Assembly: GCA_041661425.1 (NCBI GenBank)
Contig: JBAZUI010000003.1
Coordinates: forward strand, 10,446 to 74,445
Length of the DNA: 64,000 nt
Source of the DNA: Patescibacteria group bacterium
GTDB lineage: Bacteria; Patescibacteriota; Patescibacteriia; UBA9934
Reading direction: 5' to 3'
In this document: in pieces, positions 38,164 to 62,465 of the stretch
Layout: every line of letters begins with the position of its first letter
Position numbering within the stretch: the stretch's first letter is position 1
Notes under the pieces: model-generated
Told to the model about the DNA's origin: nothing
What the model saw: only the letters and a program-made list of their open reading frames with translations
Databases searched by the model: none
Made by a program: the position numbers and the translations under genes

Positions 38164-38164
38164 A

Positions 38165-38429: not shown

Positions 38430-40082
38430 CTAGTAGTTGGACTTCGTGACCCGCACGGCCGGACATCCACCCGAAGGTGTGTGGCCGGGTCGGGGCACGC
38501 AGTCCTCGAGGAGGGGCGAGCCGTCGACGAGGATCGTGCGATCGCTCACCGTGGCGCCAGCCACCTCGATACGGTAGCGCACTCCATCGATTTTTCCGCA
38601 CCCCACCACCACGCCGGAGTCGTTCCGGTAGGCAATGTAGGTGTGGAAGATCTCCGGCGCCGGAGTTTCTGCCGCGCTGACCTCGGCCACGGTCGTGATG
38701 GCTGGCTCTGATTTCCACTCGGGGAGCTTGGGCCAGCCAACCTCGGGGATCGCGACATCCGGCATGCTCGGACGCCAGGTAGGCATGGCCGGCAGGCTGA
38801 TGGTCGGCGCCTTCGGCCAGGTGATGGCCGGAGCCTTGGGCAGATTCGGGATGGAGATGCGGGGCATCTCCACCTTGGGCCAAGTCCAGGGCTCATTGGG
38901 CGGCGGAGATTCTTCCTCCTCGAGTGCGGTGAGGAGCGCGGGGTCGGGCTTTGCCTCGACCATCACGAGCTTCTCCTGGGGCGCATCAACGAGGATCAAC
39001 CCGTCGAGCTGACCCACGAGCACGAGGACGAGAACGGTGAGTGTGACACCCACTATGAACTCGAACCCCATCGCGACCGCTCCCCACGTCGCGATGCGTT
39101 TGACGAGCGAAGGCTGTCTTGGCCTTGCTTCGCGTGGAGTTGCCGGTGGCGGAGCATAGCGACGCTCCTGTGCCGGGGTCGTACTCCAGGCGAGTAGTTC
39201 CTCGTCTTCCCAGACGTCCCCGTCGGACGCGTTCCTCTCAGGCGCAGGCCTCACGGTCACAACATCATTGGGGTCGATGTCGATCACGATCGGCCGTGGA
39301 ACCCGTGGGGCGTGCTGGGGAGCTGGCGTCCGTTGCTCGGCGAGGACCGGGAGCTGATCCTCCTCCCACTCGACCATCACAGGCCTTGGGCCTGGGGCGC
39401 GGTAGAATTGCCCGAGGTCCGGCATCATCTTCTTGGTCGATCCGATGACTGCTGGGAGCAGCCGCGCATCGCCCGTATCTTCGTCCAGTATGAAGATCGG
39501 GGCTTCTTCGTCGATTTCGATCACCGCCCCATCGGTCGGGTCGGCGTCGGGATCGATGAACTCGAGGTTGCTGAAGTCATCGAGAACAGTTTCCGCCCGG
39601 GACCAGGTACCCTTGGGAGCTGTCCAGATCCCCAGCTCATCCGCGAGAGCCTGGATGTGCCTCTCGAACTCCCTCGAGATCTTCAAGAGGGAGGTCGCGA
39701 TCACTGCGACAGCCTCGGGAATCGGGAAGTCGGAGAGAACATCAGTCTGTTCTTTTTTCATCTTCTCGATGTCGCCCATGGTCGGACGACGGGGAAGGCT
39801 CGCAATGAGCATCCTGTGGTGTGCGAGCATGGTTTCCACGCTCTGCACACCTTCGAGAACTTCGTCGGCACCCACTGCCTTCTTGCAGAATGCAGCGAGT
39901 TCGACTCGAAGGGGCTCGAAGAAGTCGCTGACATCCTTTGGCGGGATTTCCACCTCAATCAGCAGGGATGTCGCGAGCTCCTTGAACACGATGCCTACCG
40001 AGAAGAACGGTGCATCGTCTTTCTGAATGTTCTCGAGACAGGCAACAGCATAACGGACAGAAGCCTTGAAAGTGTCGAGCAT
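38430..40082 (-). CDS. Hypothetical membrane protein of high-GC island 1 (cytoplasmic N-domain, TM, Pro-rich ectodomain with WPK repeats and Cys-containing C-terminal module)
   Basis: GC3 near 90%, unlike host genes. Opposite-strand ORFs are low-complexity mirrors. Confidence 0.5.
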   Translation of the reverse strand: MLDTFKASVRYAVACLENIQKDDAPFFSVGIVFKELATSLLIEVEIPPKDVSDFFEPLRVELAAFCKKAVGADEVLEGVQSVETMLAHHRMLIASLPRRPTMGDIEKMKKEQTDVLSDFPIPEAVAVIATSLLKISREFERHIQALADELGIWTAPKGTWSRAETVLDDFSNLEFIDPDADPTDGAVIEIDEEAPIFILDEDTGDARLLPAVIGSTKKMMPDLGQFYRAPGPRPVMVEWEEDQLPVLAEQRTPAPQHAPRVPRPIVIDIDPNDVVTVRPAPERNASDGDVWEDEELLAWSTTPAQERRYAPPPATPREARPRQPSLVKRIATWGAVAMGFEFIVGVTLTVLVLVLVGQLDGLILVDAPQEKLVMVEAKPDPALLTALEEEESPPPNEPWTWPKVEMPRISIPNLPKAPAITWPKAPTISLPAMPTWRPSMPDVAIPEVGWPKLPEWKSEPAITTVAEVSAAETPAPEIFHTYIAYRNDSGVVVGCGKIDGVRYRIEVAGATVSDRTILVDGSPLLEDCVPRPGHTPSGGCPAVRVTKSNY

Positions 40083-40255
40083 TCTCCCCTCCCGGGGTTT
40101 GCGGTTTTTGTGGTTGGATAACAGAAAGTTTGAAAAGAACAGAGGGGAACATTAACAAAAAAAATGCGTCTTGTCAACGCATGATCTTAAACGAAAATGC
40201 CCCCCGACCGAAGTTAGACTTCAATCGGGGAGCAGGGGCCTGACAGACGGGAGCG

Positions 40256-41782
40256 CTAGTTGATGCGCTCGACCGTTGGGCAGGCCCGGCTGGCGGGGGT
40301 CGTCTCGCCAGGATTGCCGGTGAGGCAATCCCAGGCCACGGGCTTGCCGCGGTAGCGGCAGGCACCGTCCTCGGCGGGCTTCACATTGAGCCCGTTGAGG
40401 AAGTACTGCCCGCCCGTGGTGGGGCGGACCACGACCGCGCCGTGTCCGGCGACCTGGCGGCCACACGGCACGAAAGCCGTGGGCACCGGCGGGGCCGCGG
40501 GCTGCTCGAGGGCGCTGAGGCGCGCCTCGAGGTCGGCCAGGGCCTCGTCCGTGTCGGACGAGGCGACTGGGACGGGGGTGACCACCACCGGGATCGTCTC
40601 GACGACGGCCGGGGTGCTCACCCACCACCAGCCGCCGATTCCGGTGGTCCCCACGAGGCCGGCGCACAGGGCGCAGGCCAGGAGGAGGGCGAGCAGGGCA
40701 ACGAGGCCCAGACACCCGCCCTTCCACCATCCCCACCAGCCGTTGCCCTTGGCGGGCGGGTCGGCGGGGGGATCGGCCACCGCCACCTTCTTGGTGGGCG
40801 GCTCGTCCGGCGGGCCACCGGCCATGGCCGCGAGGCCGATGACCGGGACCACGGGGATGAACGGTGGCGGGGCCACGGCGCGGGGCGCCGGGGCCGGGTC
40901 GGTGTCGGCCGCCGCCTTGTCCACGGCCGCGCTGAGCGCGGCGTCGTGGTTGGGGCCGGCGGGCGGGTCGGCCACGGTCGCCTTGGGGGCGATCTTGGCC
41001 GTGGCATCCCCGGGGTCGGGCACCACGGCCGCGAGGACCGTGGGGACCGGGCGCGGCGGGAGGCTCGGGCCCTTGGGGGGCTCGGGCTCGGCCGGGGCCG
41101 GGGTGGCGGCGGGCGGGTCGGTGGGCGAGGAGGCGATCACCTCCTCATCCTCATCCTCGTCCTCGTCGTCCGCGTCGGTGTCGGTCGGGTCGGGCTCGAC
41201 CGGGGCAGCCTCGGTAGCCGCCTTGGCCGCCTCGACGGCCTGCTCGGCCCGGTGGGCCGCGGCGCGGGCCGCCTCGGCCGTGGCCTCGGCGGTATCGGCC
41301 TCGGCCTTGCGGCCGTCGGCGATCGCCTCGGCCGAGCCGGCCTTGTCGGCGGCCTCGTCCGCCTTTCGGCCGAGGTCGTCGTCGTCGGGGCTGGCCTCGG
41401 CCACGGCGTCGGCCTTCTTGGCGATCTTCCGGAGCCGTTCGGCCTCGATCACGGCGGCCTCGGCCAGCGACTTTTTGCCGCCGGCGATGGCCGCAAGCAC
41501 CATGAGCTCGTCGGCCTTGAGCCGCTCCCAGAAGGCCACGACCTCGGGGTCGATTGACGACTCGTCGGTTTTGGCGAAGGCGTCGAGCGCCTCGGTCGCG
41601 GCGACGATCTGCTCGCGCAGCTCGCCGAGCTCGAGGTTGAGCTCTTCGGCCTCATCGGTCTTGGCCTCGGCCTCGAGCTTGGCCTTGGTGGCCAGGAACT
41701 CGGCGACCGACTCCGCCATGAGCTGGCGGAGGGCCGCGAGGGTCGCGGCGGAGGCGGGGGTGACGGCGGGGGTCTGGGTCAT
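40256..41782 (-). CDS. Hypothetical membrane protein of high-GC island 1 (Ala/Glu-rich coiled-coil N-terminus, poly-acidic tract, TM, Trp cluster, Cys-containing C-terminal module)
   Basis: Same architecture as the 38430 gene, so probably a paralog. Very high GC3. Confidence 0.5.
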   Translation of the reverse strand: MTQTPAVTPASAATLAALRQLMAESVAEFLATKAKLEAEAKTDEAEELNLELGELREQIVAATEALDAFAKTDESSIDPEVVAFWERLKADELMVLAAIAGGKKSLAEAAVIEAERLRKIAKKADAVAEASPDDDDLGRKADEAADKAGSAEAIADGRKAEADTAEATAEAARAAAHRAEQAVEAAKAATEAAPVEPDPTDTDADDEDEDEDEEVIASSPTDPPAATPAPAEPEPPKGPSLPPRPVPTVLAAVVPDPGDATAKIAPKATVADPPAGPNHDAALSAAVDKAAADTDPAPAPRAVAPPPFIPVVPVIGLAAMAGGPPDEPPTKKVAVADPPADPPAKGNGWWGWWKGGCLGLVALLALLLACALCAGLVGTTGIGGWWWVSTPAVVETIPVVVTPVPVASSDTDEALADLEARLSALEQPAAPPVPTAFVPCGRQVAGHGAVVVRPTTGGQYFLNGLNVKPAEDGACRYRGKPVAWDCLTGNPGETTPASRACPTVERIN

Positions 41783-42452: not shown

Positions 42453-42455
42453 AAC

Positions 42456-42656: not shown

Positions 42657-42697
42657 AATGTGGCAGTATAGTAGGAGAAACTTTAATTTTCGTCAAG

Positions 42698-42808: not shown

Positions 42809-42827
42809 CGCGAGTTTATCATTGATC

Positions 42828-44039: not shown

Positions 44040-44060
44040 ACGTTAGGACTTCCGCCTTTA

Positions 44061-44175
44061 GCGCATAGCTTTGTCAAAAACCTCCGCACTTCGTCACCGT
44101 ACGCATTGGTACGGCTCCTCGTTGCTCGGTTTTTTCCTCGCTCTGCATCTAAAGGCGAAAGTCCTAAAAGTTCTC
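44061..44175 (+). repeat. Copy 1 of a ~115-bp conserved intergenic element (second copy at 46938-47043)
   Basis: Shared ends GCGCATARCTTTGTCRAAA ... CTCGYTCTGCATCYAAA..CTAAAAGTTCT. Internal hairpin covaries (CCGTAC/GTACGG vs CGGAC/GTCCG). Confidence 0.5.
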
Positions 44176-44178
44176 ATT

Positions 44179-44658: not shown

Positions 44659-44663
44659 AAACT

Positions 44664-45746
44664 ATGACCGTTAAAAAGGAGGACGCGTCCGTGAAGCGCG
44701 CAATAAGCGTTTCCATTACCCCGGGAACGATTCTGACGATTTTTGCGATTGGGTGTTTGGCAGCGCTTGTCTTTTATTTGCGGAATTTGATTCCGGTTTT
44801 TTTGGCAGCGCTTTATATTGCCGCGCTTGTGAACCCGTATGCAAATTGGGGCGCGCGTCTTCATTTACCAAAAGGAGTTTCGGTTGGGATTCTCTACATT
44901 GTGGGACTGCTTTTTATTTGCGGAGTCCTGATTCTTATTCTTCCAACGCTTGTGGGGCAGGTTCAAGAAGCATTTACAAATTACCCCGGGATCATTACGG
45001 GTTTCTTTGGGAATGATCCATTGGTACGCGCCATGATCAATGGCACATGGTTCGATCTCAATCTTGAACAAATGATTATCTCCGTCCAACATTCCGGCGT
45101 GCAAGAAAGCCTGCCACAGATTGTGACCGCGATCACCAATGCATTTTCGGGAATTGTGACGGGGTTGCTTGTTTTGATTCTTGCGTTTTATCTTGTGGTC
45201 GATGGATCGTCCATTCGCGGAAGTCTCCATCTTATTATGCCGTCGTCTGCAAAACGTTTTGTGCTCGAAGTGCTTCCGATTGTCAAAACGAAAATCAGTT
45301 TGTGGTTGCGCGGTCAGCTGATCATCATGATCACGATGTTTACGATTACCTATATTTCTCTTTCGATTCTTGGGGTGCCGTATGCCTTACTCCTCGCTCT
45401 TCTCACCGGGCTTTTGGAAATCATTCCATTTCTTGGACCGATTATTGCGGCGGTTCCATCCATTATTCTCGCTTTTACGGTCTCGCCTGTCATGGCAGTG
45501 CTCGTGGCTATTCTCTATTTTGTGATGGAACAACTTGAAGGTGATTTACTCACACCAAAGATCATGCAACAGACGATCGGCTTGCATCCGATTGTCACGA
45601 TTGGCTCTTTGCTTGTAGGGTATGAAATAGGGGGTGTTGTGGGAGCGCTCTTGGCCGTGCCAACCGCAATGGTCGTGAGTGTTTCCTTGCACGAGTGGCA
45701 TCACTTAACATCAAAAAAGAAAACGTATGCACGAACAACATCTTAG
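44664..45746 (+). CDS. AI-2E family transporter (PerM/YhhT-like)
   Basis: 8 TM, LLTGLLEIIPFLGPIIAAVP signature. Confidence 0.75.
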   Translation: MTVKKEDASVKRAISVSITPGTILTIFAIGCLAALVFYLRNLIPVFLAALYIAALVNPYANWGARLHLPKGVSVGILYIVGLLFICGVLILILPTLVGQVQEAFTNYPGIITGFFGNDPLVRAMINGTWFDLNLEQMIISVQHSGVQESLPQIVTAITNAFSGIVTGLLVLILAFYLVVDGSSIRGSLHLIMPSSAKRFVLEVLPIVKTKISLWLRGQLIIMITMFTITYISLSILGVPYALLLALLTGLLEIIPFLGPIIAAVPSIILAFTVSPVMAVLVAILYFVMEQLEGDLLTPKIMQQTIGLHPIVTIGSLLVGYEIGGVVGALLAVPTAMVVSVSLHEWHHLTSKKKTYARTTS

Positions 45747-46113
45747 AGTCTGGCTGCCGTTTTTGGGCATTGGATTGATTCTGGGCGCCACGGTTATTGT
45801 CGCCAGTTGGATGATGCTTGCGGAAGGCGGAAAAGCACAAGATTCGCCGATCGCGCAAGTGGAAACTAGCGAAGCGCCATCGCCCGAAGTTTACGAGAAG
45901 CAAATACATGACATGATCGGCATGGTTGATGTTTGGAGTGCGAATGAGATGTATGGAATTTTATTGAGTATGCGCGTGCCGTCAGATTATCGCGAGTTCC
46001 ACTTCGCGCTCGTGCAAGCGCTTGAAGATTTACGCGACGGGAAAGTCGAAGAAGGGAAGTCGGCGATCGAAGCGTTAAAAGTCGTCTATCCTTGGCTTGC
46101 GAATCTTCCGTAA
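45727..46113 (+). CDS. Hypothetical membrane-anchored protein
   Basis: ORF with N-terminal TM, in operon position. Confidence 0.4.
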   Translation: MHEQHLRVWLPFLGIGLILGATVIVASWMMLAEGGKAQDSPIAQVETSEAPSPEVYEKQIHDMIGMVDVWSANEMYGILLSMRVPSDYREFHFALVQALEDLRDGKVEEGKSAIEALKVVYPWLANLP

Positions 46114-46916
46114 TGTCACTTCCCATGATTTTACTTCACCGTATCACGTCATTCTTCGTTTCGGCTCTGGCGGCCGGGGGATATTATTTTTTGATTTTTC
46201 ATCCGTTCGTCGAGGGATCCTCTATCGATCGCGTGACCGCATTGATCGCCATGGGAAGTGTCGCACTTCTTTCAGCTTTGCTCCTTTCGCGATTGCTCAA
46301 ATGGGAAGTCACCTCATTTTCTTTTTGGATTTTTTTGAGCGTTCCCATGTTTGTGATCATTTCGTCATTTTGCCTTTATCTTTTTCTTGAGATTCTTGCA
46401 CTGAAGATTATTCTTGCGCTCATGGTGAGTCTAGCGCTCTGGCTGTATACGGAAAATCTTTTTGCGTTTTATCATCTGCCCGCCGCCTATCAAGCCTATG
46501 CCTTGGAATATCTTTCCGTGATTCTTTATTTGCTTTCTTGTTTTTTCTTTGCGAGCAGTGCGTATGGCGCGCAAATGTTTTTGCAATATCCCATTTGGAT
46601 GCTCTCCATTGCGATGTTCTGGGTGGTTATTCTTGCGACGGCGGGAGTCTTTTGGGTGAGCAAAGTCGATTCCGAAACGAGTATGCTCTATGCCATTGTT
46701 GGTGCCATTATGCTCACGGAAGGGTATGTCGTCATCGGGTTGCTTCCAACAAGTTTTCTTACGAACGGAGCGGCGTTTACGGTGCTTCTGTATTTATTCT
46801 TCGGACTTTCGCGTGCGCATGTGCTCGAAAAGCTCACGCGTCCGGTGGCCTCACGCTATCTTGGGATCGCCGGAGCGTTTATGGTATTGGTTTTTTTAAC
46901 CGCAAGATGGTTTTAA
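46092..46916 (+). CDS. Hypothetical polytopic membrane protein (8 TM)
   Basis: Continuous hydrophobic ORF. Confidence 0.45.
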   Translation: MACESSVMSLPMILLHRITSFFVSALAAGGYYFLIFHPFVEGSSIDRVTALIAMGSVALLSALLLSRLLKWEVTSFSFWIFLSVPMFVIISSFCLYLFLEILALKIILALMVSLALWLYTENLFAFYHLPAAYQAYALEYLSVILYLLSCFFFASSAYGAQMFLQYPIWMLSIAMFWVVILATAGVFWVSKVDSETSMLYAIVGAIMLTEGYVVIGLLPTSFLTNGAAFTVLLYLFFGLSRAHVLEKLTRPVASRYLGIAGAFMVLVFLTARWF

Positions 46917-46937
46917 TATGCAGGACTTTTGTCTTTG

Positions 46938-47043
46938 GCGCATAACTTTGTCGAAACCTTCGTTTTTCGTTCAACGGACATCTGGGTCCGTCTCACGAAA
47001 AGCCTTTGTTTCTCCTCGTTCTGCATCCAAATCTAAAAGTTCT
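46938..47043 (+). repeat. Copy 2 of the ~115-bp conserved intergenic element
   Basis: See copy 1 at 44061-44175. Confidence 0.5.
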
Positions 47044-47059
47044 TTTTCACATAAGTATG

Positions 47060-48157
47060 TTTGAACATCGAAAAAAAGAATTCTTCTGGCAAGTTGCTTT
47101 CACGGCTTTTATTTTTTCCGTGATTGCCGGAGCGGCCTCGGGATTGATTGCCGCGGTGCTCGCAAATCAATCTCTTGATCATTATTATCAAACCTTGCTC
47201 GAGGAACAAGAATTCGCCGCCATCTCACAGGTGCGACCCGAAGCCATCCCGGGAACCTATGAAGAGGCACTCTCTGTGGTACATACAAATCTCTCCAAAA
47301 CAATTGGATTCGTTCATGCAAAATCAACGGATGCTTCGACTGTTTCCGGTTTGCAAATTGCCGATGGATATACCGGAGCCTGTGCGATTATTACAAACGA
47401 TGGATGGATGGCCTGCTACGAAGATGTTTTTGAGAATTTTTATACACCGATTTCTCAAGCGGAAATGTGGATTGAGGGAAGTCGTTATGCCATCACGTCT
47501 ATGGTTGCGGATTCGCTTTCCGATTTGGTGATGGTGAAAATCGAGGCAACCAATCTTTCCTCGGTCGCATTTGGTGATGCCGCGGGAACGAACGAGGGGA
47601 CCATGCTTTTTGCCGCCACGCAACCGGAGGAGATTTTTGTAACAAGTTTTTCCGGGAACCCCATGATCGCATCCAAGGTTGCTCTGCCTGATGTTCAATT
47701 TGTAAATGGCTGGTCGCTTTCCACCGGGCTTCCTGCAAGCGCACCGCTTTTTAATTCCTCTGGCAAACTCGTGGCATTGGGAAGTGGCAGTGAAGCCATT
47801 TCCTTAACCGTGGCTTGGTCGGCCATCGAATCAACCATTGCCAAAGGTGAGATTTCACATGCGTCCATGGGGGTGACTGTCATTTCTATCCCGGATATGC
47901 TCAATGCTTCTGCAACGGCATTTCCGGAACAGGGAGCGTTGATTACCGCGATTGCCGTGGATTCTCCGGCTGAGCTTTCCGGATTTTTGGTGGGGGACGT
48001 GATTCTTTCCATTGGAGGAACATCAATTGAAAAAACAAATCTTGCCGAGGTTCTTGCGGGTTATGAAGTGGGAGATGTCGCGAATGTTGAATTCTCCCGC
48101 GAGGGGGAGATTCAAAAAGTGGATGTGGCATTCGGTTCCTCTGAAATGATTTTCTAG
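47060..48157 (+). CDS. HtrA-like trypsin-fold protein with C-terminal PDZ domain, probable pseudoprotease
   Basis: Trypsin-fold layout with DLVMVKIE. Expected GNSGGPL is replaced by LPASAPL (Ser to Ala) and the His region is altered. PDZ GALITAIAVDSPAE...GDVILSIGG. Confidence 0.5.
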   Translation, partial: FEHRKKEFFWQVAFTAFIFSVIAGAASGLIAAVLANQSLDHYYQTLLEEQEFAAISQVRPEAIPGTYEEALSVVHTNLSKTIGFVHAKSTDASTVSGLQIADGYTGACAIITNDGWMACYEDVFENFYTPISQAEMWIEGSRYAITSMVADSLSDLVMVKIEATNLSSVAFGDAAGTNEGTMLFAATQPEEIFVTSFSGNPMIASKVALPDVQFVNGWSLSTGLPASAPLFNSSGKLVALGSGSEAISLTVAWSAIESTIAKGEISHASMGVTVISIPDMLNASATAFPEQGALITAIAVDSPAELSGFLVGDVILSIGGTSIEKTNLAEVLAGYEVGDVANVEFSREGEIQKVDVAFGSSEMIF

Positions 48158-48158
48158 T

Positions 48159-48755
48159 ATGCCGAATTGGGGGAAGATCATCCGTTCATGGCCGAGCGAA
48201 CGGATGCTTGTTTTTACAACAGTGATTGGCGCGCTTTTTTGCCTCGGTCTTTTTTTCTTGCATGACCATGAATCTGCCTCGAAACTCACCATCCGTTTCT
48301 CGAGAGATGTGGGAAGTGAAGATGTATTTGGAAATCGATTGGATTTTTTATCCATGATCAATGAGATGGATGGGGTGATAGGGAACGAAGATTTTTTTGA
48401 TGAGATGGTGAGGCAGTATCCGGATATCGATGAGAATTATTTTTTAACGCAGGATTGGGAGCGGACAATCGTCTGGCGTATCTCTCCAGGGAAGAATGAT
48501 TTACATCTCACGATTTATCACGAGGATCAAACACAAGGTGCGTTGATAGCGAATGCGGTTGCGATGTTAGTAAAAGATCAGATGGATGAAGGATGGATCG
48601 TGACTGTTTCCGAGGAAGTTGAAACAAGCATCATGAGTGCGCGACCGAATGTATTGGTTTTTGTTTTTTGTGGGGCGATGTATGGATTTTTATTTGGGGT
48701 GAGTTTTGTGGTGATTGAGAAAGGAACAAAAAAACGCCGACATGAGATTACGTGA
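48159..48755 (+). CDS. Hypothetical bitopic protein (TM at both ends; Wzz/PCP-like topology)
   Basis: ORF overlaps the previous stop. Topology only. Confidence 0.35.
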   Translation: MPNWGKIIRSWPSERMLVFTTVIGALFCLGLFFLHDHESASKLTIRFSRDVGSEDVFGNRLDFLSMINEMDGVIGNEDFFDEMVRQYPDIDENYFLTQDWERTIVWRISPGKNDLHLTIYHEDQTQGALIANAVAMLVKDQMDEGWIVTVSEEVETSIMSARPNVLVFVFCGAMYGFLFGVSFVVIEKGTKKRRHEIT

Positions 48756-48759
48756 CGAA

Positions 48760-49140
48760 TCGCGACCACCCCTCACCCCTCCTTTGAAAGGAGGGGTCTC
48801 CTTCTGGAGCCTCCCCCTTAAGCAAGGGGGAGTAAAGAGGGGGTTATGAAAACCGTGGGGCGACCGGCCGGTCGCCCATAGTAAGCGAAGTGTATGGGGG
48901 TGTAAATTCGATTTTCTTGACACCGGTTTTCTCCTCTGTTAGGTTTGAACCATGAAGCCCCTTGGAAGGGCTCGGTGGAACGGTCGTGACGCCTCCTCCT
49001 CGTCGCGATTCGTCCCCGCCGAGCCTTTCGAGGGGGTTTTTGTTTTTGGGCAGGTCGCAGACCCGCCCGTACGGCGTGATGTAGGGGCATGGCATGCCAT
49101 GCCCATACGCCAAAGCGCGTTTTTTTGCTCATTTTACCCA
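48760..49140. repeat. BIME-like cluster of GC-rich palindromic units
   Basis: CCCCTCCTTTGAAAGGAGGGG, CTCCCCCTTAAGCAAGGGGGAG, GGGCGACCGGCCGGTCGCCC, GGGCAGGTCGCAGACCCGCCC, GGCATGGCATGCCATGCC in series. Confidence 0.6.
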
Positions 49141-49415
49141 TAAAACCCACCAAACCCCTTGACAATCAGCTGGTTTTTTGATATTGTTACGGGTCCGTAA
49201 AAACGGGCGTGACCTTTAAAAAGGCTGGTTTCTGGCCTTCTCTGATTCGGTGTCCGACAACCTACCCTCCTAGGATGTTGTTGACGCCGGGTCATAGAAG
49301 GCTCAGAAGTCAGAAAATGAGCCCCCGCACCCCCGTGCGGGGGGCATAAGCCACAAAACCCCGCCCGTCCTCCCCAGAAAGGAGGCTCCGGGCAAAAACC
49401 AAAAGGAGGGTCACC

Positions 49416-50396
49416 ATGACCCTGTCCCTCGCTCTGTCCCTCGCCCTGTCCCTCGCCACCCCGGCCCTGGCCCAGGACCTCCCGTCCTGCCCGGCTGGCC
49501 ACCACCTCAAGCCCGCCGACGCCGAGTGTGTCGACGATGTGGTGGCGGCCCTGCCGCCGACGGCCGAGTCGGCACAGGCCGCGGCCGATGAGGCCAAGGC
49601 CCTGATCGCGGACCTGCAGCAGCAGGTCCGCGCCTACCGCATCACCCAGGCCACGGCCAACGCCCAGGCCAAGGCCGACCTCGAGCTCGTGATTGCGGGA
49701 CTCAAGTCCCGCATCGAAGAGCTTCAGGCCTTGGTGGCCCGGGGCAAGGCCGACCAGGCCGTGGTCGACGCCCGTCAGGATGACGTCACGGCCCAGGCCC
49801 AGGTCACGGCCAACGAGGCCAAGGCCGACGCGGCCAAGGCCAACAAGGCCGTGGGCGACGCCCGGTACGACATCGCCCAGCTCGGCATCCAGGCCGAGCT
49901 GCAGGAGGTGCGCCTCGGCCACGAAGAGGACGAGGAGGGCAGGATCGGCGCCCACGCGGGCGTCTGGGTCCAGTCCCACGGCGCAATCCCCGGGGTCGGC
50001 GACGAGCTGTCCGCGGGCGTGGTGGGAGGTCTCTCCTGGCGCGAGCGGACCTCTGCCGGCGAGACCTACGCCGACATCGGAGCCGTGCTCGGCTCCGACA
50101 ACATCCTCGGCGGTGCCGTGGAGCTTGGGCGGGTGTGGAACCTGCCCGTGGTCCCGATCGCCATCGGCATCGTGGCCGGGGCCGACGTCGTGGGCTACGA
50201 AGCCTACGATAGCAAGACCTCGTCCTCGTCACTGGGGATCGACGGCCTGGCCGGACCCGCCGTCACCGTCGATCTGGGCGGGGCGGAAGTCGATGTAGTA
50301 CCGGCGTTTTACGTCGGTACCATCCACAACCGGTTTGCCGTCCCGGACAACACGCTCCGGTCCGGCTTCGTCGGCTCGGTGAAGGTGCGGTTCTAG
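49416..50396 (+). CDS. High-GC island 2 secreted protein: signal peptide, Ala-rich coiled coil, beta-rich C-terminus ending in Phe (OMP-like)
   Basis: MTLSLALSLALSLATPALAQ signal. GC3 >85%. Terminal ...VKVRF. Confidence 0.55.
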   Translation: MTLSLALSLALSLATPALAQDLPSCPAGHHLKPADAECVDDVVAALPPTAESAQAAADEAKALIADLQQQVRAYRITQATANAQAKADLELVIAGLKSRIEELQALVARGKADQAVVDARQDDVTAQAQVTANEAKADAAKANKAVGDARYDIAQLGIQAELQEVRLGHEEDEEGRIGAHAGVWVQSHGAIPGVGDELSAGVVGGLSWRERTSAGETYADIGAVLGSDNILGGAVELGRVWNLPVVPIAIGIVAGADVVGYEAYDSKTSSSSLGIDGLAGPAVTVDLGGAEVDVVPAFYVGTIHNRFAVPDNTLRSGFVGSVKVRF

Positions 50397-50810
50397 AGCG
50401 CAACGCTCGAACCGCCGCCCTCACCAACTACGTGTTCGCGGGGATTAATCAAGTGCACTGCACAAGATTCTTCCCCGCGGATGCAACTTATCAAGAATTG
50501 TTACGGATGCTCTTCTAGTGTGAAGAACAGCCATAAGACTTCTTGAAAATTGAGGAAGTCAAGAACATTCAAATCGAAAATACAACGAACATCTGCGATG
50601 GTGCCGTCCACATGAGTGCTGATTAGCACTGAAGGATTGCCGACTAGACTAAATGGTTCCAAAGAAATTTTTGGCACTCATGAGTCGTCGCCATGGCAGA
50701 TGTTCGAAAGCTGCCTCCGCCCGCCCTTGGGGCGGCGGCAAAGTTTCCGCTCGCGACCCATCCCGGGTCTACGAGCAAGTGTCTAAACCTAGAAGTCCTT
50801 GGAGGACACC

Positions 50811-52016
50811 ATGATCCGATTCGCCCTGCTCCTCGCCGCCCTCGCCCTCTCCGCCTGCACCGGGGACCTTTTTGTCCCCGACAAGGCCGACGACGACGGC
50901 GACACCGACACCCCCACCGACGTCGACACCGACGGCGACGGGTACGACACCGACGTCGACTGCAACGACCACTCGGCCAGCGTCCACCCGGGCGCCACCG
51001 AGCTCTGCAACAACGTCGACGATGACTGCGACGGGTACGTCGACGAGGGCCTGGACTGCAACGACGCCGTCGACGCCGCCGGCGATGGCTATGCCTACGC
51101 CGACGACTGCGACGACTCCGACGTTTCCGTCCACCCCGGCGCCACCGAGACCTGCAACGGCATCGACGACGACTGCGACGACGACGTCGACGAAGGCATC
51201 GATTGCGATGCCGACGACGATGACGACGGCTACAGCGCCGCCGACGACTGCGACGACACCGACGCCTCCGTCCACCCCGGCGCGACCGAGACCTGCAACG
51301 AGGTCGACGACGACTGCGACAACGAGGTCGACGAGGACGTGACCGATACCTACTACCTCGACGACGACGGCGACGAGTACGGCGACCCCGACCACTCGGT
51401 CGAGGCCTGCGACGCGCCCGCCGGCTACGTCGACAACGACGACGACTGCGACGATGACGACGACGACGTCTACCCCGCCGCCGACGAGGACTGCAACGAC
51501 GGCGTCGACAACGACTGCGACGGCGACGAGGACGACGACGATGATGACTGCGATAGCGGCATCGTCTGCGATCCGGACGACAGCGACGACGTGGCCGACG
51601 GCTGCGTCGAAGTCTGCTGGTACCCCGACCCGGGGTCCGGCGCTGGCAACGACGTCGACGCCACGGTCTACGACCTGTGGTTCGGCGTCGAGACCATCGC
51701 CTCCGACGACACCATCGACCTCGTCGTGGTCGACTCCGGTTCGGCGTCGGGCATCTGCGTCGGCCTCTATGAGGACGACCTGGACGAGCTCCGCGTGAAC
51801 GTGGGGTTCGAGTTCGACGACGACGACTGGTCGGTCGACGGGGCATGGGACTCCGATTCCGATGATTTGGACGAGTGGTGGGCCTGCTCCACCTACTCGA
51901 CCGAAAACGGCGGGTTCTGGGGCCAGTTCACGGTCGACGGCGACACTGCCGACGACGTGGACGCCATCGACAACCCGGAGGAATCCGGGTACGACTGCCA
52001 GCTGAACAGCTGGTAG
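50811..52016 (+). CDS. High-GC island 2 lipoprotein with tandem MopE-type putative metal-binding repeats
   Basis: RBS GGAGGA precedes the ATG. Lipobox LALSAC. Four or more repeats DCDD.D.SVHPGATE.CNG.DDDCDG.VDEG. Asp-rich. Confidence 0.65.
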   Translation: MIRFALLLAALALSACTGDLFVPDKADDDGDTDTPTDVDTDGDGYDTDVDCNDHSASVHPGATELCNNVDDDCDGYVDEGLDCNDAVDAAGDGYAYADDCDDSDVSVHPGATETCNGIDDDCDDDVDEGIDCDADDDDDGYSAADDCDDTDASVHPGATETCNEVDDDCDNEVDEDVTDTYYLDDDGDEYGDPDHSVEACDAPAGYVDNDDDCDDDDDDVYPAADEDCNDGVDNDCDGDEDDDDDDCDSGIVCDPDDSDDVADGCVEVCWYPDPGSGAGNDVDATVYDLWFGVETIASDDTIDLVVVDSGSASGICVGLYEDDLDELRVNVGFEFDDDDWSVDGAWDSDSDDLDEWWACSTYSTENGGFWGQFTVDGDTADDVDAIDNPEESGYDCQLNSW

Positions 52017-52191
52017 AGTCCCACCCTCCGCCCTCTCTCTCAACTCCCGGCCGAGAACTACATGCGTCTGCGTGTGGTGCTCGTGTCCGGGGGTTTTTCG
52101 TTTTCACGTCATTGCAGGAGGCCTCATGGCCGACGCCTGCCCGTCCGAAGCTCCGATTATCCATCGTAGCTTTAGCGAAGACGGAAGGAGC

Positions 52192-52287
52192 GAAGGCGGG
52201 AAGCAATCTATCCGAACAGTTTGCTTCGTCCTCCCCTTGGTCGTCCTTCCGCCTTCGTCTTCTTCGGCGGACAGGCGCAATGACGGC
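52192..52287. repeat. Left arm of ~100-bp inverted repeat flanking rpsB-tsf
   Basis: Reverse complement matches 54104-54229 apart from a 33-bp insertion in the right arm. Contains GAAGCAATCT...AGATTGCTTC hairpin and GCGCAATGACGGC end. Confidence 0.7.
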
Positions 52288-52292
52288 AGAAG

Positions 52293-52354
52293 GGCGGGTC
52301 ACAGACCCGCCCGTACGTAAATCAATTCTGTAGGGGCAGGTCTGTGACCTGCCC
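52293..52354. repeat. Two head-to-head REP-like palindromes GGGC(G/A)GGTCACAGACC(C/T)GCCC
   Basis: Separated by GTACGTAAATCAATTCTGTA. Same family at 37246, 38243, 42024, 49048, 54261. Confidence 0.7.
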
Positions 52355-52510
52355 TTTTGGCGAATCCTTGACGAATCCCCATGTTTCCCCTACAATTCCC
52401 ACCAATCGCAACTGTCCTTCTAATCAATCAGGTTTGGGCGATATCCACTGGTTTCCTCCCAATTTATTGGGTCCAATGGATTCAAACCGCAGTCTAAAAG
52501 GAAAATTTCT

Positions 52511-53350
52511 ATGACCCACATCCCATCCATGCTCGATATGCTCAAGGCCGGCGTCCACTTTGGACATCGCACCAGCCGTTGGCATCCTAAAATGAAGTCC
52601 TATATTTTCGGCGCTCGCGGAGGCGTTCACGTCATTGACATCGAACAGACCCGCGCTCGTTTGGAAAAAATTCTGACGGATATTGAAAAGATGATTGCCG
52701 ACGGTGGCGTGATCATGTTCATTGGCACCAAAAAGCAAGTGCAGGATTTGGTCGCAAAGTACGCCAATGAATGCAATATGCCTTATGTCAACACGCGTTG
52801 GCTTGGAGGAACATTCACGAATTTTCCGGAAATCCATAAGCTTATTAAAAAGTATTTGGACCTCAAGGATAAACGTGTAAAAGGGGAACTCAAAAAATAT
52901 ACCAAGCTCGAACAATTGCAGTTTGATCGCAAAATTGAAGATCTTGATGGCCAAATCGGCGGAATCTCCATTCTCAAAGATTTACCAGATGCGGTATTCG
53001 TGCTTGATATGCGTCACGATAAAACAGCAGTGACCGAAGCGCGTTTGCGTGGCATCAAGGTGATTGGAATCTGCGACACCAATGTCAATCCGGAAATGGC
53101 CGATGAAGTTATTCCAGCCAATGATGATTCTGTTGCTTCTGTCACGATGATCACAAAATTGATTACCGAAGCCGTTCACGGCGGAAAGAGCAATGCCAAA
53201 AAAGCGATTGAACGTCGCGAGGCAGAACGCAAGGCCCGTGAAGAAGAATTGGCCGTGACCGCGGCTTCAAAAGCAACGGTCGAAGTGCTCGATGATGAAA
53301 TCAAAGAGAAACTCGCAAACGAAAAAATCGCTCAATTAAAAACGAAATAA
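52511..53350 (+). CDS. rpsB: 30S ribosomal protein S2
   Basis: LKAGVHFGHRTSRWHPKM... Confidence 0.95.
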   Translation: MTHIPSMLDMLKAGVHFGHRTSRWHPKMKSYIFGARGGVHVIDIEQTRARLEKILTDIEKMIADGGVIMFIGTKKQVQDLVAKYANECNMPYVNTRWLGGTFTNFPEIHKLIKKYLDLKDKRVKGELKKYTKLEQLQFDRKIEDLDGQIGGISILKDLPDAVFVLDMRHDKTAVTEARLRGIKVIGICDTNVNPEMADEVIPANDDSVASVTMITKLITEAVHGGKSNAKKAIERREAERKAREEELAVTAASKATVEVLDDEIKEKLANEKIAQLKTK

Positions 53351-53363
53351 TTAGAGACCTTGC

Positions 53364-53469
53364 AAAACTCGCGATCTGTTGGCTTGCGGGGCCCTGCCAT
53401 CTCCTCAACGTACACTCTGGTACGTCTCGGAGACTGGCTGTCCCGCGCACCAACATCTCATCGAGTTTT
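53364..53469 (+). ncRNA. Copy B of the ~106-nt structured intergenic element (rpsB-tsf spacer)
   Basis: AAACTCGCGATCTGTTGG...CCAACATCTCATCGAGTTT outer helix plus three inner helices. Confidence 0.55.
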
Positions 53470-53499
53470 GCGAAGGTCCAAGTATAATTCTATTTTTCT

Positions 53500-54099
53500 A
53501 TGGACATAAAAGCAGGGGATGTCCTTCAATTGCGACAAAAAACCGGCGTCGGCATGATGGAGGCAAAAAAAGCTCTTACCGAGGCCGAGGGTAATATCGA
53601 AAAAGCCATTGAATGTCTCAGAAAATCCGGAGCCGCAAAAGCTCAAAAACGTGCAGAACGCACAACCGCGCAAGGACGTGTGGAATGTTATTCCCATGCC
53701 GGCGGAAAAATTGGTGTGCTCGTGGAAGTGCAATGCGAAACGGATTTTGTGGCACTCAATGATCAATTCATTGAATTTTGTCATGATCTTGCTTTGCACG
53801 TTGCCGCTTCCAGTCCACTTTATGTAAACCGTGAAGATGTGCCGGAAGAGATGATCGCAAAGGAAAAGGAAATCATTCGTGAGCAAATTGCTGCTGAGGG
53901 TGGCAATAAGCCGGCAGAAATTGTTGAAAAGATTGTGGAAGGAAAGATCGCCAAGTATTTGCAAGATATTGTGTTGATGGACCAGACATTTATCAAAGAT
54001 GAGGATGTGACCATTCGAGCCTTGCTCGAATCGAAGATTCTCTCCATCGGGGAAAATATTCGCATCGCCCGCATTGCGCGATTACAAATTGGGGAATAG
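53500..54099 (+). CDS. tsf: Elongation factor Ts
   Basis: LRQKTGVGMMEAKKALTEAEGNIEKAIE UBA-like N-terminus. Confidence 0.9.
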   Translation: MDIKAGDVLQLRQKTGVGMMEAKKALTEAEGNIEKAIECLRKSGAAKAQKRAERTTAQGRVECYSHAGGKIGVLVEVQCETDFVALNDQFIEFCHDLALHVAASSPLYVNREDVPEEMIAKEKEIIREQIAAEGGNKPAEIVEKIVEGKIAKYLQDIVLMDQTFIKDEDVTIRALLESKILSIGENIRIARIARLQIGE

Positions 54100-54103: not shown

Positions 54104-54229
54104 GCCGTCATTGCGCCTGTCCGCCGAAGAAGACGAAGGCGGAAGGACGACCAACCTATTTTCCCTGCCGTCATTGCGAGGACGACCAAAGGGAGGACGA
54201 AGCAATCTGTTCGAATAGATTGCTTCGTC
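54104..54229. repeat. Right arm of inverted repeat flanking rpsB-tsf
   Basis: See 52192-52287. Carries two CGTCATTGCG(C/A) units. Confidence 0.7.
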
Positions 54230-54289
54230 GGCCATGAGGCCTTCTCGCAATGACGTGAGAGGGCGGGTCAAAAGACCTGCTCTTTTCGA

Positions 54290-62457: not shown

Positions 62458-62465
62458 ACTGCTCC

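What the first reader, a model, noticed from the sequence alone, without database searches (positions are those of the whole stretch)
49150..52060. Second high-GC island encoding diderm-type envelope proteins (MopE-repeat lipoprotein and OMP-like protein ending in Phe)
The gene at 49416-50396 has a signal peptide, an Ala-rich coiled coil and a beta-rich C-terminus whose last residue is Phe. The gene at 50811-52016 has a lipobox (LSAC) and at least four DCDDxDxSVHPGATExCNGxDDDCDGxVDEG repeats. That putative metal-binding motif is typical of Myxococcota/Bdellovibrionota-like high-GC diderms. An OMP C-terminal signature and a lipoprotein of this kind are unexpected in a CPR-like monoderm genome. 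This suggests acquisition from a Gram-negative donor or host, or else contamination. The island is flanked by REP-like palindromes of the same family on both sides (49048 and 52293-52354).
Basis: partly seen in the sequence, partly recalled or inferred. Interest (0 to 1): 0.75.

Follow-up and report, generated by a model that had tools for sequence, protein, structure and literature searches.

The report
Persistent high-GC surface-protein genes in Patescibacteria
Two fast-evolving secreted-protein genes written in extremely GC-rich codons sit at the same chromosomal spot in several related ultra-small (CPR/Patescibacteria) bacteria, so they are neither contamination nor a recent import, and what keeps them GC-rich is unexplained.

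Summary
Window 49.3-52.1 kb has two genes at 67-71% GC (GC3 0.90 and 0.93) in a 47-50% GC Patescibacteria genome. Gene B (50811-52016) is a lipobox protein with four Pfam MopE (PF11617) repeats. Gene A (49416-50396) has a signal peptide, a coiled coil and a Gly/Val-rich C-terminus ending in Phe. REP palindromes flank the pair.

The interpretation mostly fails. A related MAG (L004, RpsB 88% identical) and a more distant one (L006, 68%) carry a two-gene high-GC islet directly upstream of rpsB. This rules out contamination and misassembly. Synonymous sites between window and L004 are saturated, yet island GC3 stays at 0.90-0.98 in all three genomes. So the composition is actively maintained and is not a leftover of recent transfer. 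The GC-richness is confined to the ORFs: promoters, leaders and the A-B spacer have host-like GC and are better conserved than the proteins (24-26% and 38-46% identity). No donor was found. No OMP model matches gene A, and the terminal Phe is absent from its ortholog. MopE, TSP3 and DUF4215 repeats also occur at ordinary GC in Patescibacteria.

Best reading: a clade-specific, hypervariable envelope-protein locus with an unexplained, persistent codon anomaly. A sister islet lies at 38.3-41.9 kb.

The parts
48917..49047 (+). Conserved non-coding block left of the islet. It has a sigma70-like promoter (TTGACA 48917-48922, 17-nt spacer, TAGGTT 48940-48945), then an ~85-nt near-perfect hairpin with a CCUCCUCCU loop (48955-49039) and a T-run. 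Candidate small RNA or long terminator-like hairpin.
   Evidence: 88-95% identical to L004 6237-6400 while host synonymous sites are saturated. Consensus fold -68 kcal/mol, but no covariation is possible with 2 sequences. No Rfam hit.
49048..49068 (.). REP-like palindrome, left flank (GGGCAGGTCGCAGACCCGCCC).
   Evidence: Same family at 37245, 42024, 52292 and 52334. L004 has copies on both flanks of its islet (6372, 9663). Absent from L005 and L006.
49159..49187 (+). Gene A promoter: TTGACA, 17 nt, TATTGT, with an extended TG.
   Evidence: 10/12 consensus match. Conserved in L004 (TTGACA...TATAGT).
49195..49415 (+). Gene A 5' leader. The first ~120 nt are conserved and have host-like GC. The last ~100 nt are GC-rich, with the hairpin CCCCCGCACCCCCGTGCGGGGGG and the RBS AGGAGG.
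   Evidence: Blocks 49236-49315 are 75-85% identical to L004 at GC 0.50-0.55. Blocks 49316-49395 are 38-55% identical at GC 0.68-0.70.
49416..50396 (+). Gene A, 326 aa: Sec-type signal peptide, Ala-rich coiled coil (about residues 50-156), and a Gly/Val-rich beta-prone C-terminal domain ending VKVRF. GC 0.706, GC3 0.90.
   Evidence: The only detectable relative is the syntenic L004 gene 7022-8038 (24-26% identity; E 3e-5 full length, 2e-4 for the C-terminal domain alone). No Pfam, NCBIfam, PHROG or PADLOC family.
50397..50810 (+). A-B spacer and gene B leader. GC is host-like (0.30-0.53 for most of it). A 90%-conserved GC-rich hairpin (CTGCCTCCGCCCGCCCTTGGGGCGGCGGCAAAG) lies at 50711-50743, and the RBS GGAGG precedes the ATG.
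   Evidence: Homologous to the L004 spacer 8039-8399 (blastn 67% over 50474-51214).
50811..52016 (+). Gene B, 401 aa: lipoprotein signal (LSAC), four PF11617 MopE Cys/Asp repeats, an acidic linker, and a ~140-aa all-beta C-terminal domain (CWYP...IDNPEESGYDC). GC 0.671, GC3 0.93.
   Evidence: Its ortholog L004 8400-9506 is 38% identical by BLASTP and 46% in a global alignment, and includes the C-terminal domain (41% identical). Both differences between the window and the Logan contig L001 are nonsynonymous changes in this gene (A86D, A90D).
52100..52290 (.). MITE-like intergenic repeat on the right flank. An inverted copy lies between tsf and gap at 54104-54245.
   Evidence: Inverted pairs I2 (51 nt, 100%), I6 (48 nt, 94%) and I20. 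This shows the flank is ordinary DNA of this genome.
52292..52354 (.). Two REP palindromes in inverted orientation (52292-52312 and 52334-52354). The rpsB promoter follows at 52368-52396.
   Evidence: The Logan contig L002 covers 52258-53392 at 100% identity and so joins the REPs to rpsB.
38430..41782 (-). Sister islet ('island 1') between tRNA-Asp (38087-38163) and rplT. It holds two high-GC genes, 38430-40082 (GC3 0.75) and 40256-41782 (GC3 0.94). Each encodes a single-pass membrane protein with a small Cys-containing C-terminal domain, and each has its own consensus promoter.
   Evidence: L005 has a positional counterpart beside tRNA-Asp and rplT (8435-9028, GC3 0.91, against host 0.34-0.46). 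REP palindromes at 38246-38267 and 42024-42044.

Best explanation
This is a genuine, vertically inherited chromosomal locus of one Patescibacteria clade. It is not foreign DNA caught in transit.

The locus is an expression site for two rapidly diversifying envelope proteins, each with its own promoter and long conserved leader. Gene B is a lipid-anchored protein. Its disulfide- and Asp-rich MopE repeats form a stalk that presents a variable beta-rich head domain. Gene A is a secreted coiled-coil protein with a Gly/Val-rich beta domain, probably anchored in or on the envelope. Both most likely act at the cell surface, in attachment to a partner cell or as a coat exposed to phage or host pressure. 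That role would explain why the proteins diverge far faster than their regulatory DNA.

Their GC-rich codon usage (GC3 0.90-0.98) is a maintained property of the ORFs in this clade. It is held by a force acting on the coding sequence. The two candidates are selection on the coding sequence or mRNA, and ORF-limited gene conversion from GC-rich copies. It is not a residue of a recent transfer. The MopE module may have come from a GC-rich diderm lineage long ago.

Shown: the locus is real; its position is conserved; GC3 persists through synonymous saturation; the anomaly is confined to the ORFs; the MopE and lipobox features are present.

Inferred: surface location, function, diversifying selection, and the nature of the GC-maintaining force.
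For: (1) Conserved position. L004 (RpsB 88%) is syntenic with window 42244-54098. It has a two-gene islet at 6900-9600 (GC 0.63-0.69) with a host-like spacer (0.49) upstream of rpsB. L006 (RpsB 68%) has two MopE lipoprotein genes with GC3 0.96 and 0.98 directly upstream of rpsB.

(2) The trait is clade-specific. Among the ~75 fetched rpsB loci long enough to be scanned (>=4 kb), only window, L004 (=L037), L005 and L006 show high-GC segments.

(3) Maintenance. At conserved 4-fold codons, host genes are 27-51% identical (saturated). Island genes are 56-57% identical, with many C<->G swaps and almost no A/T. GC3 is uniform at 0.8-1.0 along entire ORFs, including signal peptides and non-repeat domains.

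(4) ORF restriction. Weakly conserved spacer blocks (identity 0.47-0.68) have GC 0.30-0.53.

(5) Non-coding DNA is better conserved than coding DNA: promoter, leader and hairpins are 75-95% identical, against 24-46% protein identity.

(6) Control. The host-GC neighbour o48159 is just as divergent (26%) but has GC3 0.46, so fast evolution alone does not raise GC.

(7) No donor, phage or defence link.

(8) Secretion signals are conserved in the orthologs: lipoboxes LSAC, LTGC, ATGC and AVAC, and signal peptides.

(9) The only two differences between independent assemblies are nonsynonymous changes in gene B.
Against: - The force that holds GC3 above 0.9 is not identified.
- Translational selection is unlikely: rpsB, tsf and gap have GC3 0.43-0.50.
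- No silent donor copies were seen in the 64 kb.
- Amino-acid usage is also GC-shifted (GARP/FYMINK 1.7-3.9 against 0.6-1.4). That is what long residence under GC pressure, for example in a GC-rich donor, would give.
- Only four genomes of the clade are available.
- Orthology of A with A' rests on weak similarity (E 3e-5 and 2e-4, pairwise) plus synteny.
- Surface function is inferred from sequence features only. Both structure models are low-confidence.
- The homolog searches may be blind to relatives in CPR MAGs. Gene A and the island-1 proteins are not even in the 15-billion-protein collection.
Confidence: 0.55

Rival explanations
1. Recurrent xenologous replacement. The site upstream of rpsB, and the one beside tRNA-Asp, are hotspots where each lineage repeatedly imports envelope-protein ORFs from unsampled GC-rich donors or a GC-rich mobilome. 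Every copy is therefore young and unameliorated.
For: - Codon and amino-acid usage look like a genuine high-GC organism.
- Islet content differs at depth. L006 has two MopE genes and no A-type gene. The island-1 proteins of window and L005 share no detectable similarity.
- Island 1 abuts a tRNA gene.
- MopE proteins are most abundant in Myxococcota.
Against: - No integrase, transposase or att-like scar in the islet.
- A and B keep the same order, promoters, leaders and spacer in window and L004. Homology runs continuously across the ORF borders.
- The only relative of gene A, and the only other copy of the gene B head domain, are the syntenic genes of L004.
- No hit better than 40-49% identity, and those over the repeats only, among billions of proteins. 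The searched data include all-SRA assemblies, among them the sample of origin.
- The spacers would have to be AT-normal in a GC-rich donor.
Confidence: 0.2
2. A single recent horizontal transfer from a Gram-negative (Myxococcota- or Bdellovibrionota-like) donor into this genome.
For: GC 0.67-0.71 against 0.47. MopE motif. Lipobox. C-terminal Phe.
Against: - The islet is present at the same site in L004 and L006, which are separated from the window by synonymous saturation and by 12-32% RpsB divergence.
- No close donor.
- Promoters, leaders and spacer have host-type composition and are conserved between CPR genomes.
Confidence: 0.04
3. Contamination or chimeric assembly: reads from a co-occurring GC-rich organism were joined to a CPR contig through shared repeats.
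For: Repeat families sit on both flanks, and Logan contigs break there.
Against: - Four independent assemblies from different projects show the same architecture.
- The flanking repeats are families of this genome, also found between tsf and gap and elsewhere.
- Logan contig L001 links the conserved left non-coding block to gene A and on into gene B. L002 links the REPs to rpsB.
- Host-GC conserved regulatory DNA lies between the two GC-rich ORFs.
Confidence: 0.02
4. Gene A is a true outer-membrane-type beta-barrel with a coiled-coil stalk (OmpM- or trimeric-autotransporter-like). It would either mark a cryptic outer layer in this CPR lineage or be inserted into the outer membrane of a Gram-negative host to tether the epibiont.
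For: - Signal peptide, then coiled coil, then a ~150-aa Gly/Val-rich beta-prone domain.
- The terminal strand FVGSVKVRF has hydrophobic residues alternating at positions -1, -3 and -5. The ortholog has LGVSATFQF near its end.
- The best, non-significant, PDB matches of the helical part are trimeric coiled coils: Lpp, TAA stalk, sigma-1.
Against: - No OMP family match even at E<=10, and none in the PDB.
- pLDDT is below 40 for the domain.
- Beta-amphipathicity is barely above shuffles (z ~1.1 for A, ~2.6 for A').
- Aromatic content is low.
- The ortholog ends ...FQFGGGN, so the C-terminal Phe rule is not conserved.
- No BAM or OM-biogenesis gene in the window.
Confidence: 0.1

Closest known systems
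Pfam PF11617 'putative metal-binding motif' (MopE-type Cys/Asp repeat) proteins, abundant in Myxococcota
   Same: Gene B has four repeats above the Pfam threshold, an N-terminal lipoprotein signal and an acidic composition. The top database hits are such proteins.
   Different: Hits cover only the repeat half (<=65% of the query, 35-59% identity). The ~140-aa C-terminal head is shared only with the syntenic L004 gene. The host is a Patescibacterium. Another Patescibacteria MAG has such a protein at near-host GC.
Classical horizontally acquired genomic island with amelioration (Lawrence-Ochman model; general knowledge)
   Same: Sharp compositional contrast. One of the two islets abuts a tRNA gene. 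The genes encode surface proteins of unknown function.
   Different: No mobility genes. Conserved position and regulatory DNA across genomes whose synonymous sites are saturated. No amelioration at all: GC3 is 0.90-0.98 in every lineage. The anomaly is confined to the ORFs.
Large GC-rich genes (lgr) of Protochlamydia amoebophila (PMC2216083)
   Same: Lineage-restricted, repeat-containing genes that are GC-richer than the rest of a symbiont genome and have no full-length homologs elsewhere.
   Different: The lgr genes are a recently duplicated paralog family encoding LRR proteins (abstract of PMC2216083). Here the genes are single-copy and positionally conserved, encode envelope proteins, and have a far larger GC3 excess. 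Conservation across species was shown here.
GC-biased gene conversion in bacteria (Lassalle et al. 2015, PMC4450053)
   Same: It predicts higher GC, strongest at GC3, in frequently recombining genes, driven by non-optimal GC-ending codons. Surface-protein genes under diversifying selection are plausible recombination targets.
   Different: That paper reports differences in average GC3 between recombining and non-recombining core genes in most species tested. It does not describe a GC3 of 0.9 in a 0.45 background. Here weakly constrained spacer DNA inside the locus is not GC-enriched, which a regional conversion bias would not predict.
Expression-site antigenic variation loci and long-leader S-layer genes (general knowledge: e.g. 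pilE/pilS, vlsE; slpA-type leaders)
   Same: Constant strong promoter and long conserved 5' leader in front of a hypervariable surface-protein ORF.
   Different: No silent cassettes were seen in 64 kb. No evidence of within-strain switching. None of those systems is known for a codon-composition compartment.
OmpM, trimeric autotransporter and Lpp-type coiled-coil envelope proteins (PMC10628300 for OmpM)
   Same: Gene A has a signal peptide, a coiled coil and a C-terminal beta-prone domain with an aromatic terminal strand.
   Different: No SLH domain. No family or structural match. The terminal Phe is not conserved. The organism is presumed monoderm.

Membership tests
PF11617 MopE-type metal-binding-motif repeat proteins | Repeats matching the Pfam model above the gathering score (27 bits) | tested here: met
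   107.7 bits, E 3.1e-31, 4 stretches. Orthologs or paralogs: L004 94.2 bits; L006 47.2 and 44.1 bits.
PF11617 MopE-type metal-binding-motif repeat proteins | Actual metal (Cu/Ca) binding | not testable with these tools
   Sequence only. The structure model is low-confidence.
Bacterial lipoprotein | Signal peptide ending in a lipobox [LVI][ASTVI][GAS]C | tested here: met
   MIRFALLLAALALSAC. L004 has LSLTGC. The L006 proteins (LATGC, FAVAC) fit only the looser PROSITE-type rule, by my reading.
Bacterial lipoprotein | Lgt, LspA processing machinery encoded in the genome | not tested
   Not in the 64-kb window. The rest of the genome was not available.
Outer-membrane beta-barrel protein (BAM substrate) | Match to an OMP beta-barrel family or fold | tested here: not met
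   No Pfam hit for residues 169-326, or for the L004 counterpart, at E<=10. No PDB sequence hit. AF2 pLDDT below 40 over the domain, so no fold search was justified.
Outer-membrane beta-barrel protein (BAM substrate) | C-terminal beta-signal ending in an aromatic residue, conserved in orthologs | tested here: inconclusive
   A ends VKVRF. The ortholog ends ATFQFGGGN, so a similar strand is present but not C-terminal.
Outer-membrane beta-barrel protein (BAM substrate) | Even number of amphipathic transmembrane beta-strands | tested here: inconclusive
   Mean beta hydrophobic moment 0.91 against 0.80+/-0.105 in shuffles for A, and 1.06 against 0.77+/-0.11 for A'.
Recently acquired genomic island | Atypical composition relative to the host genome | tested here: met
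   GC 0.67-0.71 and GC3 0.90-0.93, against 0.42-0.52 and 0.37-0.51.
Recently acquired genomic island | Mobility genes or att-type direct repeats at the borders | tested here: not met
   Only two ORFs have coding signal and neither matches any Pfam, NCBIfam or PHROG family for integrases, transposases or recombinases. The flanking repeats are genome-wide intergenic families, not direct repeats of a target site.
Recently acquired genomic island | Patchy presence: absent from the same site in close relatives | tested here: not met
   Present upstream of rpsB in L004 and L006.
Recently acquired genomic island | Identifiable donor lineage with closely related genes | tested here: not met
   Gene A has 0 hits in 1.84 billion representatives and 0 in the word-indexed search. 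The gene B head domain has 0 hits. The gene B repeats reach at most 35-59% identity.
REP (repetitive extragenic palindrome) elements | Short imperfect palindrome repeated in intergenic DNA far above chance | tested here: met
   6 matches against 0.01 expected. 5 of them are intergenic; the sixth is a 3-mismatch match inside gene A at 50127. Also present in L004.
REP (repetitive extragenic palindrome) elements | Associated RAYT-type transposase in the genome | not tested
   None seen in the window. The whole genome was not available.

The most novel reading that the evidence does not exclude
A clade of Patescibacteria keeps a small set of hypervariable envelope-protein ORFs as a separate compositional compartment. 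GC3 is 0.9-0.98, against 0.35-0.6 for all other genes. The ORFs sit at fixed chromosomal expression sites with conserved AT-normal promoters and leaders. The compartment would be maintained over deep evolutionary time by an ORF-targeted process: expression-site gene conversion from GC-rich copies, or strong selection on coding-sequence composition. That would be a previously undescribed way for a bacterial genome to hold intragenomic codon heterogeneity without ongoing foreign import.
Probability: 0.35. Interest if true: 0.75.

Novelty: new variant of a known kind. Interest (0 to 1): 0.6.

Why it matters
Compositional outliers in metagenome-assembled CPR genomes are routinely read as contamination or recent horizontal transfer. 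They are trimmed from bins or counted as HGT. This locus shows that such an outlier can be an old, syntenic, clade-specific feature.

Composition-based island and contamination calls would be wrong here. The public gene calls also seem to miss these ORFs: gene A and the island-1 proteins are absent from a 15-billion-protein collection that does hold rpsB from the same contig.

Biologically, the locus points to a handful of fast-evolving, probably surface-exposed proteins that are good candidates for partner-cell or phage interaction in an uncultivated episymbiont lineage.

It also poses a clean evolutionary puzzle. GC3 above 0.9 persists through synonymous saturation in a 47% GC genome and is confined to the ORFs. 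That bears on the debate over selection versus biased conversion as drivers of bacterial GC content.

Tried and rejected
- Homolog searches for gene A (word-indexed search; full HMMER scan of 1.84 billion representatives) returned nothing, not even a self-hit. One search showed the protein is not in that collection.
- A profile of the gene B C-terminal domain found nothing.
- IMG/VR scans with A and with the B head domain and tblastn of gene A against phage genomes found nothing.
- PHROGs and PADLOC gave no hits for any of the four island proteins. NCBIfam gave none.
Single-sequence models of A and B were low-confidence (pLDDT 46.6 and 43.3), so no fold searches were run.
- The PDB profile search gave only non-significant coiled-coil matches.
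- The Rfam E-value scan of 48.7-52.6 kb gave only spurious miRNA-hairpin matches below threshold.
- The metagenome scan with RpsB added no new close relatives; L037 is the L004 contig.
- DGR-type A-mutagenesis: rejected, because the coding strand has A > T and the whole ORF is affected.
- Translational selection: rejected, because ribosomal and glycolytic genes have GC3 0.42-0.50.
- Transcription-coupled or regional GC bias: weakly constrained transcribed or spacer DNA is not GC-rich.
- 'Fast evolution causes high GC': rejected using the o48159 control.
- REPs as island boundaries: rejected, because they are absent from L005 and L006.
- A literature search found no description of such islets in Patescibacteria.

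Full report
OBSERVATION. The window has a background GC of 0.42-0.52 and two sharp high-GC stretches, at 38.3-41.9 kb and 49.3-52.1 kb. In the second stretch GC reaches 0.64-0.735 over two ORFs. It falls back to 0.435-0.455 in the 414-nt spacer between them.

Gene A (49416-50396, 326 aa) begins with a hydrophobic signal-like segment ending ALA|QD. It has an Ala-rich helical region and ends ...GSVKVRF.

Gene B (ATG 50811, preceded by GGAGG; ends 52016) starts MIRFALLLAALALSAC. It has four Pfam PF11617 (Cu-binding_MopE) repeats at 107.7 bits against a cut-off of 27.

The chosen frames show the usual coding pattern GC3 > GC1 > GC2: 0.90/0.75/0.47 for A and 0.93/0.69/0.39 for B. All other genes of the window have GC3 0.37-0.51.

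The palindrome GGGCAGGTCnnnGACCTGCCC lies at 49048, 52292 and 52334, and also at 37245 and 42024. That is 6 matches at up to 3 mismatches against 0.01 expected by chance. The sixth is a 3-mismatch match inside gene A at 50127.

ORGANISM AND CONTEXT. RpsB of the window is recorded as MFA6130895.1, 'Patescibacteria group bacterium', on a 77.6-kb contig. The window also carries:
- a type IV pilus cluster (PilB, PilC, pilins, prepilin peptidase);
- ftsA, ftsZ and pyk;
- tRNA-Asp;
- rplT, rpmI and infC;
- tmRNA and smpB;
- rpsB, tsf, gap and pgk;
- giant surface proteins with TIG, Big, VWA and DUF4215 domains;
- two TSP3-repeat proteins.
All of these have host GC. The islet lies between a small membrane protein gene (48159-48755) and rpsB. 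It contains no integrase, transposase or phage gene.

NOT CONTAMINATION AND NOT RECENT. A scan of 185,579 species genomes with RpsB found one close relative, L004 (JBAYHI010000010.1, Patescibacteria, 88% identity). It also found two more distant ones, L006 (68%) and L005 (61%).

L004 is collinear with window 42244-54098. It has the same thing at the same place: GC 0.65-0.69 at 6900-8100, 0.49 at 8100-8400, and 0.63-0.68 at 8400-9600, followed by rpsB. Its two ORFs are a signal-peptide, coiled-coil, Gly-rich protein and a lipobox MopE protein.

L006 has a 2.6-kb high-GC stretch directly upstream of rpsB. It holds two MopE lipoprotein genes with GC3 0.96 and 0.98, against host 0.54-0.59.

L005 has a high-GC stretch between tRNA-Asp and rplT, about 1 kb from rpsB. 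One of its ORFs has GC3 0.91 against host 0.34-0.46. This is the positional counterpart of the window's first islet.

Among the ~75 fetched rpsB loci of at least 4 kb, mostly from other Patescibacteria and Chloroflexota, only these four genomes have such segments.

Per-run Logan contigs from SRR18595301 independently reproduce 48981-51176 (99.9%) and 52258-53392 (100%).

Four assemblies from different projects cannot share one chimera.

THE COMPOSITION IS MAINTAINED, NOT LEFT OVER. I compared window and L004 at 4-fold degenerate codons of conserved residues. In host genes these sites are only 27-51% identical, which is essentially saturated. In the island genes they are 56-57% identical. That is about what two random draws from a C-rich, G-containing pool would give (my estimate). 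There are 12/41 (A) and 22/54 (B) C<->G swaps and almost no A or T. So the synonymous sites have turned over and yet stayed G/C.

Under amelioration toward the host equilibrium (about 0.45), a gene acquired before the split should have lost much of its excess. Instead GC3 is 0.90 and 0.93 in the window, 0.90 and 0.97 in L004, and 0.96 and 0.98 in L006.

GC3 is uniformly 0.8-1.0 along the ORFs, including signal peptides and non-repetitive domains.

Fast evolution is not the cause. The host-GC neighbour o48159 is as divergent (26% identity) and has GC3 0.46.

THE ANOMALY IS CONFINED TO THE ORFS. The gene A promoter (TTGACA, 17 nt, TATTGT, 49159-49187) and about 120 nt of its leader are 75-85% identical to L004 at GC 0.42-0.55. 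The A-B spacer is homologous in both genomes. Even its weakly conserved blocks (identity 0.47-0.68) have GC 0.30-0.53. Only about 100 nt upstream and about 40 nt downstream of each ORF are GC-rich, and much of that is hairpins.

Non-coding DNA is thus better conserved than the proteins. A and A' are 24-26% identical (pairwise E 3e-5; 2e-4 for the C-terminal domain alone). B and B' are 38-46% identical.

All four island genes of the window have their own near-consensus sigma70 promoters and long leaders.

Amino-acid usage is also GC-shifted: GARP/FYMINK is 1.7-3.9 against 0.6-1.4.

A locus-wide or transcription-coupled bias fits poorly with the AT-normal spacer. Translational selection fits poorly because rpsB, tsf, gap and pgk are not GC3-rich. 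DGR-like adenine mutagenesis does not fit, because A exceeds T on the coding strand and the whole ORF is affected.

THE PROTEINS. Gene B is a lipoprotein with MopE repeats. Thousands of database proteins match the repeats at 35-59% identity over at most 65% of the query. Most are from Myxococcota, but one is from a Patescibacteria MAG (P0002). There the gene sits beside the ATP synthase operon at only slightly raised GC (0.56-0.60 against a host range of 0.48-0.57) and has mixed third positions.

The ~140-aa C-terminal domain (CWYP...IDNPEESGYDC) is shared only with L004 (41% identity) and found nothing else. A low-confidence model makes it all-beta.

Gene A has no family, PDB or database relatives. 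The single-sequence model supports the helical region (pLDDT 70-80) and nothing more.

The OMP idea rests on the terminal strand alone. Beta-amphipathicity is barely above shuffles. The L004 ortholog ends ...ATFQFGGGN.

A lipoprotein is not a diderm marker (general knowledge). Cys/Asp-rich extracellular repeats (DUF4215, TSP3) occur in this same genome at host GC.

REPEATS. The flanks are mosaics of intergenic repeat families that also occur in ordinary contexts of this genome:
- 52100-52290 matches 54104-54245 (inverted);
- 48765-48797 matches 38204 and 54364;
- the REP palindrome family.
L004 has REPs on both sides of its islet. L005 and L006 have none. So the REPs are a genus-level intergenic repeat that accumulates in these long spacers. 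They are not part of the islet.

EXPLANATION. The best-supported reading is a vertically inherited, clade-specific expression locus for two rapidly diversifying envelope proteins. Its GC-rich coding sequence is actively maintained by an ORF-directed force, either selection on coding-sequence or mRNA composition, or gene conversion limited to the ORFs.

The surface role and diversifying selection are inferences. They rest on the signal peptides and lipoboxes, the repeat and stalk-like architecture, the contrast between conserved regulatory DNA and divergent ORFs, and the fact that the only two differences between independent assemblies are nonsynonymous changes in gene B.

The main rival is recurrent replacement from unsampled GC-rich donors at hotspots. 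It explains the donor-like codon and amino-acid usage and the differing cargo in L006 and L005. It conflicts with the continuous homology across ORF borders, with the conserved AT-normal spacer, and with the absence of any close source among billions of proteins.

Recent single transfer and contamination are effectively excluded.

COMPARISON AND NOVELTY. Gene B is a member of the PF11617 repeat family and carries a new head domain. Gene A belongs to no known family.

As an 'island' the locus fails three of four defining tests: mobility genes, patchy distribution and a donor.

The nearest precedents for GC-rich genes in a lower-GC symbiont are the Protochlamydia lgr genes (PMC2216083). The nearest precedent for GC3 enrichment of recombining genes is Lassalle et al. 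(PMC4450053). Both differ in scale and in kind.

I found no description of such islets in Patescibacteria.

I rate it a new variant of a known kind: a compositionally atypical hypervariable surface-protein locus. Its persistence and ORF restriction are unusual.

LIMITS. Only four genomes of the clade are available. No read-level data were available. Both structure models were weak. The protein databases evidently lack these ORFs from the public MAG annotations. So absence of CPR homologs is weaker evidence than absence of GC-rich donors.

Noticed in passing
window 48917-49047: A non-coding block ~90% identical to L004 6237-6400, although synonymous sites are saturated. It has a promoter-like TTGACA, 17 nt, TAGGTT, then an ~85-nt near-perfect hairpin with a CCUCCUCCU (anti-Shine-Dalgarno-like) loop and a T-run. 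Candidate small RNA. No Rfam match.
   Followed up: partly
window 38087-42050: First high-GC islet, directly after tRNA-Asp. It holds two minus-strand genes (38430-40082, GC3 0.75; 40256-41782, GC3 0.94) for single-pass membrane proteins with coiled-coil or Pro-rich regions and small Cys-containing C-terminal domains. Each has a consensus promoter, and REP palindromes flank the islet at 38246 and 42024. L005 has a positional counterpart with unrelated sequence.
   Followed up: partly
window 50711-50743 and L004 ~8330-8365: A 90%-conserved GC-rich hairpin (GCCTCCGCCCGCC cttgg GGCGGCGGCAAAG) in the gene B leader, about 70 nt upstream of the start codon. Possible cis-regulatory element.
   Followed up: no
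window 51067 and 51079 vs Logan contig L001: The only two differences in 2196 nt between the window and an independent per-run assembly are both C->A changes giving Ala->Asp, at codons 86 and 90 of gene B. The rpsB contig L002 is 100% identical.
   Followed up: partly
window 49416-50396, 38430-41782 (public annotation): The exact products of gene A and both island-1 genes are absent from the 15-billion-protein collection, whereas RpsB of the same contig is present (MFA6130895.1). Public gene calling probably misses or mis-frames these high-GC ORFs, which have long ORFs in all six frames.
   Followed up: partly
window 53363-53481, 62465-62584, 42702-42817; 52100-52290 vs 54104-54245; 38204/48765/54364: Several families of ~50-120-nt intergenic repeats (MITE-like), 81-100% identical, scattered between housekeeping genes. 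Logan contigs break at them.
   Followed up: partly
window 2530-12069, 11945-13482, 21065-26563: Giant host-GC surface proteins. One of 3179 aa has TIG, Big_5, DUF4215 (a Cys-rich repeat I recognise as the Myxococcus type), VWA and a T4SS-pilin-like N-terminus. One of 1832 aa has DUF6923 and peptidase M14. Two further proteins have bacterial TSP3 repeats. This shows 'myxo-like' extracellular repeats at ordinary composition.
   Followed up: partly
window 59299-59802: Six tandem copies of a 63-nt unit (68-73% identical to the reference copy, compared over 189-nt windows) inside ORF 59173-60063, giving a 21-aa repeat protein at host GC.
   Followed up: no
L005 and L006 record titles: The two MAGs with 61-68% RpsB identity and Patescibacteria-like synteny are labelled 'uncultured Gammaproteobacteria bacterium' in their TPA records. 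This is probably a taxonomic mislabel.
   Followed up: no
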